Shown: positions 24,001-27,000 of the stretch, one piece after another
How positions within the stretch are numbered: position 1 is the stretch's first letter
Layout: the number at the start of each line of letters is the position of its first letter
From: a virus
Lineage: Duplodnaviria; Heunggongvirae; Uroviricota; Caudoviricetes
Strand: one strand, 5' to 3'
Length of the DNA stretch: 27,160 nucleotides
IMG/VR virus record: IMGVR_UViG_2521172589_000011
Program-made: the position numbers

Positions 24001-27000
24001 GTGTATATCCAGTGCCAGACTTCGGTGAGTATATCGGTACGTCATGGTCTGGTTGTGCAAAAGAGGCCCGTAAAGACGGGTGGCGAATAAGCAAAGACAA
24101 AACACGTACTTTTGCGCCCGGGCATAAAGTTTTGAGGATTAACACATGACCACTATTACCAAAGAACGTATTGAATTGTTCATTAAAAATCCGCTTGAAA
24201 ACGGGCTTACTCGTGGCGAACAAATGGAACTGGCACGAATTGCACTGGCATCACTGGAACGCGAACAGATTCGCCACGAGCATGCCAAATGGTCTGACTC
24301 CACATTTGGCTGCGTTGGCCCCATTGGTCCACTGAAACACCTCTCAAAAGAGGCACTGGAAGCCGCAGCCGAACCAGACGATCTTAGCGAGTGGGCTGAT
24401 ATGCAGTTCCTGTTGTGGGATGCACAGCGCCGTGCTGGTATCAGTGATGCTGAAATTACCGCTGCTATGGAAAATAAATTGAAGATCAACATGGAACGCC
24501 AGTGGCCTGAACCAAAAGATGGTGAGCCTCGCTTGCACATTAAAGAACCCGGCAACTCTCCGGTAACTCCGGATGGCTGGATAAGCTGTAGTGAGCGAAT
24601 GCCGGATACCAAAACAGCCGTTCTTGTTGCCGTGGAGTTTGACAGGAAAGGTGACTGGCGAATGAAATGGGCGACTTACATCCCGGGTCATCCTGACGCT
24701 AATGATGGGTGGATAATTCCTGGTGCGTCGTGGAAACCGTCACACTGGATGCCGCTACCAGAGCCTCCACTTTGAAAGCGAAGCTTATACATATCTTTTA
24801 CATCAGCAATCTATTGTTAATCTCCAATCAATGTTACGTTGTCATCTCACTCATGCTTTGGAGGTAGTGATATGTCTTGTCCAAAATGCGGTTCTGGAAA
24901 TATTGCAAAAGAAAAAACAATGCGTGGATGGTCTGGTGATTATGTGTGCTGCGATTGCGGATACAACGACTCTAAAGACGCATTTGGAGAGCGTGGTAAA
25001 AACGAGTTTGTTAAAATTAATAAAGAACGCGAAGGCAACGAAAAAAGCTAATTTATTTATTCATATATGAAAACAATGTAACCAATATTCGAATTGAAGA
25101 ACTGAAAGAACACCAAGCCGCCTGATGGCGGTTTTTTATTGCCTGATTTGCAGGTTCGATTCCCTATTCGGAGATAGCACTCATGCAACACGAACTACAG
25201 CCTGATTCACTGGTTGATTTGAAATTCATCATGGCTGATACTGGCTTCGGTAAAACCTTCATCTATGACCGGATTAAGTCCGGAGACCTGCCTAAAGCCA
25301 AAGTTATCCACGGGCGAGCAAGATGGTTATATCGTGACCATTGTGAATTCAAAAATAAGCTCTTAAGCCGCGCCAATGGGTAAAATAGCGGGTAAAATAT
25401 TTCTCACATCTAAAAAACACCATTCCAATCAATCCCCTGCCGCCTCAAGTAGATGTCTGCAGGGGACACCAGATACCCTTCAAACGAAATCTACCTTCAC
25501 CCCGTAAAAGATGGGTTTGGCAGCACACTTGCCTTATATCTACTCATTTTTACTGCAACAGGTTGAAATCTCAGCACTGTCAGAAAGCGCTGATGACTAA
25601 ACAGCCCTGAGCCGGGCGATGTAACCATCACACAGAATCCTGATAGCGAAATATGGCGTGACTCGATACTTCACTCCGCAATGCATTCCTTGATGAATTC
25701 GCAGGACCGTGATACACGGGACAGGTCACTGAATGACGACAATGTCCTGGAAATCAGCGAACCGCGCATCTGAAGTACATTTGAGCGACTGTACCAGAAC
25801 ATGAATGAGGCGTTTGGATTAGGCGATTATTAGCAGGGCTAAGCATTTTACTATTATTATTTTCCGGTTGAGGGATATAGAGCTATCGACAACAACCGGA
25901 AAAAGTTTACGTCTATATTGCTGAAGGTACAGGCGTTTCCATAACTATTTGCTCGCGTTTTTTACTCAAGAAGAAAATGCCAAATAGCAACATCAGGCAG
26001 ACAATACCCGAAATTGCGAAGAAAACTGTTTGGTAGCCTGCGTGGTCAAAGAGTATCCCAGTCGGCGTTGAAAGCAGCACAATCCCAAGCGAACTGGCAA
26101 TTTGAAAACCAATCAGAAAGATCGTCGACGACAGGCGCTTATCAAAGTTTGCCACGCTGTATTTGAAGACGGATATGACACAAAGTGGAACCTCAATGGC
26201 ATGTAACAACTTCACTAATGAAATAATCCAGGGGTTAACGAACAGCGCGCAGGAAAGGATACGCAACGCCATAATCACAACTCCGATAAGTAATGCATTT
26301 TTTGGCCCTACCCGATTCACAAAGAAAGGAATAATCGCCATGCACAGCGCTTCGAGTACCACCTGGAATGAGTTGAGATAACCATACAGGCGCGTTCCTA
26401 CATCGTGTGATTCGAATAAACCTGAATAAAAGACAGGAAAAAGTTGTTGATCAAAAATGTTATAGAAAGACCACGTCCCCACAATAAATATGACGAAAAC
26501 CCAGAAGTTTCGATCCTTGAAAACTGCGATAAAATCCTCTTTTTTTACCCCTCCCGCATCTGCCGCTACGCACTGGTGATCCTTATCTTTAAAACGCATG
26601 TTGATCATCATAAATACAGCGCCAAATAGCGAGACCAACCAGAAGTTGATATGGGGACTGATACTAAAAAATATGCCGGCAAAGAACGCGCCAATAGCAT
26701 AGCCAAAAGATCCCCAGGCGCGCGCTGTTCCATATTCGAAATGAAAATTTCGCGCCATTTTTTCGGTGAAGCTATCAAGCAAACCGCATCCCGCCAGATA
26801 CCCCAAGCCAAAAAATAGCGCCCCCAGAATTAGACCTACAGAAAAATTGCTTTGCAGTAACGGTTCATAAACGTAAATCATAAACGGTCCGGTCAAGACC
26901 AGGATGAAACTCATACACCAGATGAGCGGTTTCTTCAGACCGAGTTTATCCTGAACGATGCCGTAGAACATCATAAATAGAATGCTGGTAAACTGGTTGA

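What the first reader, a model, noticed from the sequence alone, without database searches (positions are those of the whole stretch)
25147..25471. tRNA-Arg 3' half appears split around torI: T-arm fragment upstream, acceptor-end attR core downstream
TTGCAGGTTCGATTCC (25147-25162) and CTGCAGGGGACACCA (25457-25471), if juxtaposed, would rebuild a contiguous T-arm plus acceptor 3' end of a tRNA-Arg as I recall argW. Here they are about 295 bp apart with the excisionase gene between them. The downstream piece behaves as the attR core and has a 7-bp inverted partner (CCCCTGC at 25434-25440). The upstream piece may be a relic of an older attachment site, or an extended region of tRNA homology in the phage arm.
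Basis: partly seen in the sequence, partly recalled or inferred. Interest (0 to 1): 0.5.

Follow-up and report, generated by a model that had tools for sequence, protein, structure and literature searches.

The report
tRNA-like box upstream of excisionase gene
The prophage's right end carries the expected 15-base copy of the host tRNA-Arg tail (the known attachment-site core), plus a separate, conserved tRNA-like 13-16-base box in front of the excisionase gene torI, which looks like an undescribed regulatory site rather than half of a split tRNA.

Summary
Both strings are real. CTGCAGGGGACACCA at 25457-25471 equals nt 61-75. No shuffle of the window gave an argW match longer than 14 nt.

The window is the right end of an HK620/Sf6/KplE1-type P22-like prophage in argW of E. 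coli 55989/O104:H4. The downstream string is the known attR core (annotated pawZ in K-12).

The tRNA is not split. The phage arm next to the core keeps its own degenerate T-loop, and tRNA similarity does not continue 3' of the upstream piece.

The upstream piece is this lineage's version of a box, CAGGTTCGATTYCC:
- It sits about 30 nt before the torI ATG in 15-16 of 20 diverged lineages.
- It is as conserved as torI codon positions 1-2.
- It is tandemly duplicated in some lineages.
- It forms no conserved hairpin.
- It lies outside the attR fragment that suffices for excision in vitro.

It contains GTTCG, the pentamer TorI binds in attL. My best guess is a tRNA-derived operator in the torI leader. 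That function is inferred, not shown. The GenBank annotation as a CII-activated promoter is poorly supported. Interest is modest.

The parts
24872..25051 (+). eag gene (Eag protein), the last gene of the P22-type early-left module
   Evidence: Annotated in 55989, HK620 and P22. Weak sub-threshold Lar-like zinc-finger hit. P22 homology runs through it and ends at 25141.
25115..25140 (+). Intrinsic-terminator-like hairpin plus T-run, downstream of eag
   Evidence: Terminator scan and RNA fold. A different terminator occupies the same place in other torI contexts.
25139..25151 (+). TTGCCTGATTTGC, which the HK620 record annotates as a CII binding site of a 'phage integration' promoter (window 25138-25176)
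   Evidence: HK620 and Sf6 GenBank features. The spacing is N5, not the N6 seen at this phage's pRE-like and paQ-like sites. G25141 is A in 19 of 82 loci.
25148..25163 (+).
25151..25164 (+). Conserved 'T-arm box' CAGGTTCGATTCCC at -32 to -19 from the torI ATG. It contains the TorI-type pentamer GTTCG at 25154-25158.
   Evidence: Present at -29/-30 in 15-16 of 20 diverged lineages. Column conservation about 0.9. Only rare variants among 82 E. coli-type loci. Tandem copies in L128, L129, L131, L125 and L010.
25166..25173 (+). ATTCG (a pentamer-like sequence 12 nt after GTTCG) abutting the Shine-Dalgarno GGAG (25170-25173)
   Evidence: The same position reads GTTCG or GTCCG in L010, L019, L018, L126 and L130, but AACCG or CATCG in others.
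25183..25383 (+). torI, the 66-aa recombination directionality factor (excisionase), identical in protein sequence to TorI encoded in other E. coli genomes
   Evidence: ORF. Annotation WP_001163428.1. 100% match to E. coli loci. PMC3509656 states that KplE1 TorI is 100% identical to HK620 HkaC and Sf6 gp18.
25368..25388 (+). Two direct GGGTAAAAT repeats (25368-25376 and 25380-25388), likely IntS arm-type sites of the P arm
   Evidence: Sequence. GGGTAAAA is conserved after torI in all lineages. P' arm-type sites share the motif TAAA (PMC2951348). Their assignment as arm-type sites here is an inference.
25434..25440 (+). CCCCTGC, the left arm of the inverted repeat whose right arm is GCAGGGG (25459-25465) inside the core
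   Evidence: 89% of cells paired across 24 lineages against 36-56% for slid controls, with compensatory changes at two pairs.
25452..25470 (+). Proposed core organisation: GATGTC | TGCAGGG (7-bp overlap) | GACACC
   Evidence: Imperfect inverted repeat, 71% paired across lineages, with T.A to C.G covariation at one pair. This is an inference; the cleavage sites have not been mapped here.
25457..25471 (+). attR core CTGCAGGGGACACCA, equal to argW nt 61-75 (the pawZ equivalent)
   Evidence: The core is given as 16 nt, CTGCAGGGGACACCAT, in K-12 (PMC2951348). Here the 16th base is G because the host flank differs.
25913..27160 (-). Host flank: oligosaccharide MFS transporter, the first gene of the csc sucrose cluster

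Best explanation
The two strings have different explanations.

(1) The downstream 15-mer is the attR core of an HK620/Sf6/KplE1-type recombination module. It is the displaced host copy of the argW 3' end, left behind after IntS-mediated integration. This is shown.

(2) The upstream 16-mer is this lineage's version of a conserved box, CAGGTTCGATTYCC. The box sits about 30 nt before the torI start codon, 6-10 nt inside the left edge of the torI-attP-intS module. Its identity to the argW T-arm is too long to be chance, so it most likely descends from tRNA or att sequence. This origin is inferred. It has been kept by selection and acts at the DNA level rather than as a hairpin. That is supported by conservation, fixed position, tandem duplication and the absence of covarying pairs.

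(3) The most likely function is an operator in the torI leader. The recombination proteins, TorI above all, would bind there and feed back on torI expression. TorI binds GTTCG-type pentamers and already represses intS in this way. This step is inferred only; my probability is about 0.35.

The tRNA is not split. The phage arm next to the core carries its own degenerate T-loop, probably the left core-type integrase half-site.
For: Identity and significance:
- Searches give 16-nt and 15-nt exact matches; 0 of 200 shuffles exceed 14 nt.

Known module:
- The window is 100% identical to 55989 and O104:H4 chromosomes and 97-99% identical to HK620 and Sf6.
- intS lies next to attL and torI next to attR.
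- pawZ is annotated in K-12.
- The core and TorI/IntS sites are described in PMC2951348.

Box under selection:
- It is at -29/-30 in most of 20 lineages whose torI is 68-84% identical to the window's.
- Column conservation is about 0.9, against 0.72 at third codon positions and 0.3-0.6 in the flanking leader.
- Within 82 E. coli-type loci the mean minor-allele count in the box is 0.38, against 3.5 at third positions.

DNA-level array:
- Tandem copies occur in L128, L129 and L131 (16-nt period), L125 (13-nt) and L010 (12-nt).

Not structural:
- RNAalifold predicts 0 pairs.
- The T-arm stem is not maintained.

TorI link:
- The attL sites are GTTCG, GATCG and GTCCG, and TorI represses PintS through them (PMC2951348).
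- Several lineages have a second GTTCG or GTCCG 12 nt downstream, at the Shine-Dalgarno sequence.
- TorI multimerises on DNA (PMC4989314).
- Panis et al. state that excision control rests on RDF expression, which was uncharacterised.

Not split:
- TTCGAT sits in register next to the core in most lineages.
- The leader 3' of the box is no more argW-like than other gene leaders, rank 24 of 68.
Against: - No binding or expression data exist for the box.
- The published attR substrate (135 bp, starting at window ~25360) excludes the box. It is therefore dispensable for excision in vitro, and TorI binding to it was not examined with that fragment.
- The bases flanking GTTCG in the box (G before, A after) differ from the attL sites, which have mostly A before and C or T after.
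- The box is conserved over 11-13 nt, more than a pentamer site needs.
- The second pentamer is non-canonical in the window (ATTCG) and in many lineages.
- 4-5 of 20 lineages lack the box altogether. One of them (L014) looks like a clean deletion, so the box is not essential.
- No promoter was found that the box could control. A roadblock on read-through transcription would have to be assumed.
- Choosing lineages that have the box inflates the conservation figures somewhat.
Confidence: 0.5

Rival explanations
1. Neutral relic. The upstream piece is a leftover of an older or longer attachment site, or of a tandem or composite integration at argW. It now has no function and has simply not yet decayed.
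For: - It is an exact 16-nt match to argW.
- It sits within 6-10 nt of a mosaic breakpoint: P22 homology ends at 25141.
- Edwardsiella/Pantoea-type versions look like an almost complete T-arm, ACAGG TTCGATT C CCTGT.
- Some lineages have lost it.
Against: - The core of the box is as conserved as torI codon positions 1-2, while the neighbouring leader and third codon positions have diverged.
- Its position relative to the ATG is fixed.
- It has been duplicated in tandem several times.
- Only rare variants occur within E. coli-type loci.
- tRNA similarity does not extend 3' of it.
- It does not track the host tRNA. Boxes read CCAGG or ACAGG where the retained TGC in the cores implies GCAGG in the tRNA.
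Confidence: 0.2
2. CII-activated integration promoter pI, as annotated in the HK620 and Sf6 GenBank records. The TTGC at the start of the 16-mer would be the second half of a CII site (TTGCCTGATTTGC). The rest would be the spacer to a weak -10. Transcripts would start near 25176, after the torI Shine-Dalgarno, giving Int without TorI.
For: - The depositors' features cover window 25138-25176.
- The prophage encodes a lambda-type CII.
- TTGCCTGA is shared with the paQ-like site at 11434.
- The geometry would mimic lambda pI. This point rests on my own knowledge of lambda.
Against: - The repeat spacing is N5, whereas this phage's pRE-like (17838) and paQ-like (11434) sites are N6.
- G25141 of the first TTGC is A in 19 of 82 loci, many of them on contigs of about 40 kb.
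- In diverged lineages the second TTGC is TCCA, TACA or GACA, and no -10 is conserved. The best-conserved part is what this model treats as the spacer.
- The sigma-70 scan finds nothing here.
- intS has its own mapped promoter in attL/attP (PMC2951348).
Confidence: 0.15
3. Integrase half-site mimic. The box copies the left (B-type) core half-site of attB, GGTTCGATTCC. IntS bound at the arm-type sites at the end of torI would bridge to it and loop out or repress torI.
For: - The box equals the argW sequence that abuts the proposed 7-bp overlap TGCAGGG.
- It follows the invariant tRNA form rather than each phage's own C half-site.
- GGGTAAAAT arm-type-like repeats lie about 215 bp downstream.
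Against: - The half-site assignment is itself an inference.
- The phage C and C' half-sites share GRTGT, which the box (GATTC) lacks. It would therefore be a poor IntS site.
- No data exist on IntS core-type specificity.
Confidence: 0.1
4. Chance resemblance between phage DNA and a tRNA T-arm.
For: T-loop-like GGTTCGA sequences are common in genomes. This rests on my own knowledge.
Against: - 0 of 200 shuffles give a match longer than 14 nt.
- The match is to the very tRNA used as the integration site, on the same strand, contiguous in tRNA coordinates with the core, and recurs in many lineages.
Confidence: 0.01

Closest known systems
KplE1 (CPS-53) / HK620 / Sf6 recombination module: IntS integrase, TorI RDF, attL/attR at argW (Panis et al., PMC2951348, PMC3509656)
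   Same: - Same core sequence and same TorI protein.
- Same gene order: argW-attL-intS ... torI-attR.
- Same GGGTAAAA arm-type motifs and same GTTCG TorI sites in the P' arm.
- The window is 97-99% identical to HK620 and Sf6 across torI and attP.
   Different: - The host flank is the csc cluster rather than dsdC, so the identity block is 15 nt rather than 16 nt.
- The T-arm-like box upstream of torI is present in K-12, HK620 and Sf6 too. It is not described as such in the papers I could read.
pawZ, the argW pseudogene fragment annotated at the right end of CPS-53 in E. coli K-12
   Same: It is the same 15-nt tRNA 3' end at attR.
   Different: pawZ covers only the downstream string. Nothing is annotated for the upstream string.
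Lambda-type CII-dependent pI promoter
   Same: The location is upstream of the excision and integration genes, and a TTGC direct repeat is present. This is how the HK620 and Sf6 depositors read the site.
   Different: The repeat spacing is N5 rather than N6, the first repeat is polymorphic, and neither the repeats nor a -10 are conserved in related lineages.
RDF (wHTH excisionase) operators that regulate transcription, for example TorI on PintS
   Same: The box has a GTTCG pentamer on the same strand as in attL, direct-repeat arrays occur in some lineages, and it lies next to a recombination gene.
   Different: The box is longer than a pentamer site and its flanking bases differ from the attL sites. 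No promoter has been identified, and no binding has been shown.

Membership tests
attR of the IntS/TorI (KplE1/HK620/Sf6) module at argW | The same core sequence is present at both prophage ends and equals the 3' end of argW | tested here: met
   CTGCAGGGGACACCA is at window 25457-25471 and at L004 8343-8357, inside the ARAGORN-called tRNA-Arg(CCT).
attR of the IntS/TorI (KplE1/HK620/Sf6) module at argW | intS adjacent to attL and torI adjacent to attR, both transcribed in the direction of argW | tested here: met
   55989 annotation: tRNA-Arg, then intS... then torI, then the host flank.
attR of the IntS/TorI (KplE1/HK620/Sf6) module at argW | Arm-type (GGGTAAAA) sites in the P arm, and TorI GTTCG-type sites in the P' arm | tested here: met
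   GGGTAAAAT occurs twice at 25368-25388. GTTCG, GTCCG and GATCG are present in the attL P' arm of the same prophage and of HK620 and Sf6. The motifs are as given in PMC2951348.
attR of the IntS/TorI (KplE1/HK620/Sf6) module at argW | Supports IntS/TorI/IHF-dependent excision | not testable with these tools
   This has been shown in vitro for the near-identical KplE1 and HK620 substrates (PMC3509656), not for this prophage.
tRNA gene or pseudogene split by an insertion | The two pieces are the only tRNA-like sequence, and the DNA next to the downstream piece is unrelated to the tRNA | tested here: not met
   The P arm abutting the core keeps TTCGAT in register with the T-loop in most lineages, and T.GAT in the window.
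tRNA gene or pseudogene split by an insertion | Sequence 3' of the upstream piece continues, at least degenerately, as the tRNA (a relic full 3' half) | tested here: not met
   Similarity of the leader to TGCAGGGGACACCAT ranks 24 of 68 gene leaders, equal to the median.
tRNA gene or pseudogene split by an insertion | Detectable as a tRNA or partial tRNA by structure-aware tools | tested here: not met
   ARAGORN finds 0 genes. Rfam at E<=10 gives no tRNA hit.
TorI (RDF) operator | Contains the recognition pentamer GTTCG, GATCG or GTCCG | tested here: met
   GTTCG is at 25154-25158 and is invariant in all 14 aligned lineages. The pentamers are as given in PMC2951348.
TorI (RDF) operator | Several sites in direct repeat, about one helical turn apart | tested here: inconclusive
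   Tandem boxes or a second GTTCG/GTCCG at +12 occur in some lineages. The window has ATTCG, and others have AACCG or CATCG. Periods are 12-16 nt, against 10 nt in attL.
TorI (RDF) operator | Flanking bases like those of the attL sites | tested here: not met
   attL sites have mostly A before and C or T after the pentamer. The box has G before and A after.
TorI (RDF) operator | Bound by TorI, and binding changes expression | not testable with these tools
   The published attR fragment starts at about 25360 and excludes the box.
CII-activated promoter (lambda pI/pRE type) | TTGC-N6-TTGC straddling the -35 region | tested here: not met
   The site is TTGC-N5-TTGC. N6 sites exist elsewhere in the window, at 11434 and 17838.
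CII-activated promoter (lambda pI/pRE type) | Repeats and -10 conserved among related phages | tested here: not met
   G25141 is A in 19 of 82 loci. The second repeat and the -10 region are not conserved in diverged lineages.

The most novel reading that the evidence does not exclude
The box is a deliberate DNA mimic of the integration target, the T-arm half of attB in argW, placed in front of the excisionase gene. Under this reading the recombination proteins that recognise the tRNA site (TorI and/or IntS) also set the level of the excision factor. That would be a target-site mimic coupling intasome protein occupancy to the excision switch, conserved across Enterobacterales phages that use argW.
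Probability: 0.15. Interest if true: 0.6.

Novelty: new variant of a known kind. Interest (0 to 1): 0.35.

Why it matters
Panis et al. concluded that in this widespread class of prophages the excision switch depends on expression of the RDF gene, and that this control was not understood (PMC2951348). A conserved, sometimes duplicated, tRNA-like box 30 nt upstream of torI is a concrete candidate for that control point. It can be tested with a gel shift and a reporter fusion. It also corrects a 2001-2004 database annotation (a CII-dependent pI promoter) that comparative data do not support. The rest of the finding, the attR core and its inverted repeat, is established biology.

Tried and rejected
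1. Split-tRNA model. Rejected because a T-loop-like sequence persists next to the core and there is no tRNA similarity 3' of the box.
2. RNA or cruciform T-arm hairpin. Rejected because RNAalifold predicts 0 pairs. With a 7-nt or 8-nt loop the outer stem pairs are mostly unpaired, and covariation is no better than in shuffles. The single-sequence fold of the window leader is not conserved.
3. Known RNA family or degenerate tRNA. No Rfam hit near threshold and nothing from ARAGORN.
4. Sigma-70 promoter in the leader. None found.
5. Homogenisation of the box with each host's tRNA. Rejected because boxes read CCAGG or ACAGG, while the cores retain TGC, which implies GCAGG in the tRNA.
6. My first core half-site structure string was mis-registered. 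It was redone.
7. Papers I could not obtain: Panis 2007 JBC, Panis 2010 Virology and Menouni 2013 PNAS. I did not look up Clark 2001 JMB. The mapped TorI and IntS site figures and the Rho-dependent control of torI could therefore not be checked. From memory, Menouni et al. reported that Rho-dependent termination keeps torI silent. PMC11551753 confirms only that Rho inhibition raises the copy number of the KplE1 (CPS-53) region.
8. The first viral-contig scan returned 80 loci that all encode a TorI identical to the window's. They gave no information on divergence but served for the polymorphism test.
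Full report
WHAT THE WINDOW IS

Window 24800-25900 is 100% identical to the chromosomes of E. coli 55989 and the O104:H4 outbreak lineage. It is 97-99% identical to phages HK620, HK633 and Sf6 across torI and attP.

In 55989 the element is a roughly 40-kb P22-like prophage. The order is tRNA-Arg(CCT) (argW), intS, tailspike and head genes, the immunity region, the early-left genes, eag, torI, and then the host csc sucrose genes. This is the KplE1/HK620/Sf6 recombination module described by Panis et al. 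(PMC2951348, PMC3509656).

CHECKING THE OBSERVATION

- CTGCAGGGGACACCA is exact at 25457-25471.
- I read the real argW from the left end of the same prophage (L004 8283-8357), and ARAGORN confirms it.
- The two strings are argW nt 46-61 and nt 61-75. They tile the last 30 nt with a one-base overlap.
- They are the two longest argW k-mers anywhere in the window. In 200 shuffles the longest never exceeded 14 nt.
- No tRNA is called in the window, and Rfam gives nothing tRNA-like even at E<=10.
- attL has the same core, followed by an HK620-type P' arm.

THE DOWNSTREAM PIECE

This is the attR core. K-12 annotates the equivalent 15 nt as pawZ, an argW pseudogene fragment at the end of CPS-53. The literature gives the core as CTGCAGGGGACACCAT. 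Here the 16th base is G because the host flank is the csc cluster rather than dsdC.

Across 24 lineages the repeat CCCCTGC(A)...(T)GCAGGGG is paired in 89% of cells, against 36-56% for slid controls. Compensatory changes occur at two pairs: TCCCTGC/GCAGGGA in Edwardsiella-type modules and CCCCTACA/TGTAGGGG in Rouxiella.

A second, inner symmetry is moderately supported: GATGT(N) | TGCAGGG | (N)ACACC, with 71% paired and T.A to C.G covariation at one pair. I read it as core-type half-sites flanking a 7-bp overlap. That is an inference.

WHY THE tRNA IS NOT SPLIT

- In most lineages the phage arm abutting the core reads (A/G)TTCGATGTA|TGCAGGGGACACCA. The T-loop TTCGAT is still there, in register with the tRNA. 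A 3-nt patch (GTA where argW has TCC) separates it from the identity block. The window has the more diverged TAGATGTC.
- The module therefore holds two T-loop-like copies, one beside the core and one upstream of torI.
- The leader 3' of the upstream piece is no more similar to the argW acceptor end than ordinary gene leaders of this prophage. It ranks 24 of 68, equal to the median.

WHAT THE UPSTREAM PIECE IS

I collected torI relatives from GTDB genomes and IMG/VR. These include Enterobacter, Citrobacter, Serratia, Pantoea and Edwardsiella. Clustering at under 93% torI nucleotide identity gives 20 lineages, 68-84% identical to the window.

- In 15-16 of the 20 lineages a box CAGGTTCGATT(C/T)CC sits at -29/-30 from the ATG and 6-10 nt before the Shine-Dalgarno sequence.
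- Box columns are about 0.9 conserved. That matches torI codon positions 1 and 2 (0.89 and 0.94). It exceeds third positions (0.72) and the flanking leader (0.3-0.6).
- Within 82 E. coli-type loci the box carries only rare variants. The mean minor-allele count is 0.38, against 3.5 at third positions.
- Several lineages carry the box in tandem. L128, L129 and L131 have CAGGTTCGATTCCCGT|CAGGTTCGATTCCCAT|CGGAG. L125 has two copies 13 nt apart. L010 has three 12-nt units.
- Four or five lineages lack the box. One (L014) looks like a clean deletion that joins TTGCCTG to the Shine-Dalgarno sequence.
- Upstream of the box, homology between contexts ends. P22 matches the window up to 25141 and then continues into eaC. 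E. coli-type loci show at least three different upstream contexts that converge at ...TTTTTATTGCCTGATTTGCAGG.
- Only 13 nt are broadly conserved. Other lineages read TTCCAGG, TTACAGG or GACAGG, while their cores retain TGC, which implies GCAGG in the tRNA. The extra TTG that makes a perfect 16-mer is therefore specific to the E. coli lineage, and the box is not being homogenised with the host tRNA.

HOW IT MIGHT WORK

A structural role is not supported.
- RNAalifold predicts no pairs in the leader.
- A T-arm stem is not maintained with either a 7-nt or an 8-nt loop.

A role in the recombination reaction itself is unlikely. The attR fragment that works in vitro is 135 bp, and its inner primer lies at the 3' end of torI (window ~25360). 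It therefore excludes the box.

The HK620 and Sf6 GenBank records annotate this spot as a CII-activated integration promoter, with TTGCCTGATTTGC as the CII site. Several results count against that.
- The repeat spacing is N5, while the pRE-like (17838) and paQ-like (11434) sites of this phage are N6.
- G25141 of the first repeat is A in 19 of 82 loci, many on contigs of about 40 kb.
- In diverged lineages neither the second repeat nor a -10 is conserved. The best-conserved part is what the model treats as the spacer.
- The sigma-70 scan finds nothing in this stretch.

What remains is a DNA-level protein site. TorI binds GTTCG, GATCG and GTCCG pentamers in attL and represses PintS through them. 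The box contains an invariant GTTCG on the same strand. Several lineages carry a second GTTCG or GTCCG 12 nt downstream, at the Shine-Dalgarno sequence. The box also occurs in direct-repeat arrays, as expected for a protein that multimerises on DNA.

Against this, the bases flanking the pentamer differ from the attL sites. The second pentamer is ATTCG in the window. Conservation also extends beyond a pentamer.

An alternative reader is IntS. The box equals the argW sequence that abuts the proposed overlap, so it resembles the B-type half-site. It lacks the GRTGT shared by the phage half-sites, however.

I put about 0.35 on TorI, 0.1 on IntS, 0.15 on the CII promoter and 0.2 on a functionless relic.

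COMPARISON WITH WHAT IS KNOWN, AND NOVELTY

The module, the core, pawZ, the arm-type sites and the TorI sites in attL are all established. The T-arm-like box upstream of torI is present in K-12, HK620 and Sf6 as well. None of the papers I could read describes it as tRNA-like or as conserved. The only annotation is the predicted pI promoter. Several primary papers were not available, so prior mention cannot be excluded.

I rate it a new variant of a known kind: a cis element of a recombination module. Interest is modest. It gives a specific, easily tested candidate for the unexplained control of RDF expression.

VERDICT

The attR core and its inverted repeat hold. The split does not. "Relic" may describe the origin but does not describe the present state. 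The function of the box is inferred, not shown.

Noticed in passing
window 17838-17851 (+) and 11434-11447 (+): Two canonical TTGC-N6-TTGC sites. One lies inside the cII gene and points toward the repressor gene (pRE-like). The other lies about 110 nt beyond the 3' end of the Q gene, antisense to it (paQ-like). It shares TTGCCTGA with the N5 site upstream of torI.
   Followed up: partly
window 25376-25507 (+): A 43-aa ORF, homologous to HK620 hkaB and Sf6 gene 17, runs across the attR core. In the prophage its C-terminus is encoded by host DNA. It has no Pfam match and is probably not a real gene.
   Followed up: partly
window 25472-27160; L003: The host flank is the csc sucrose cluster (MFS transporter, a kinase annotated as aminoimidazole riboside kinase, cscA), not dsdC as in K-12. 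The first base after the core therefore differs (G instead of T), and the att identity block is 15 nt rather than 16 nt.
   Followed up: partly
L128, L129, L131 (1455-1500); L125; L010 (2170-2213): The T-arm box is tandemly duplicated upstream of torI, with periods of 16, 13 and 12 nt. A close relative, L132, has a single copy, so copy number changes on a short timescale.
   Followed up: partly
L014 2470-2500 (Dryocola sp.): A natural variant in which the box is absent. The terminator and TTATTGCCTG run straight into GGAGGAAAGC-ATG. It would serve as a ready-made deletion control.
   Followed up: no
L021 2450-2495 (Arsenophonus nasoniae): A more distant torI homologue has a different direct repeat, TTGCGTG twice with an 11-nt period, at the place where the box would be. 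This suggests a different operator at the same position.
   Followed up: no
L011 and L028: Contigs labelled as Actinomycetes and Parachlamydiaceae MAGs carry enterobacterial-type torI modules, with the box and an argW core in L011. This probably reflects mis-binning or contamination.
   Followed up: no
window 24872-25051: Eag gives sub-threshold hits to the Lar restriction-alleviation family and to a small zinc-finger family (two CxxC pairs).
   Followed up: no
window 25424-25433 and homologues (alignment A3, columns 4-10): A conserved ATCAA sits just left of the inverted repeat in most lineages. It may be the IHF site implied by the primer name attR-IHF2, but it does not fit the full IHF consensus.
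   Followed up: no
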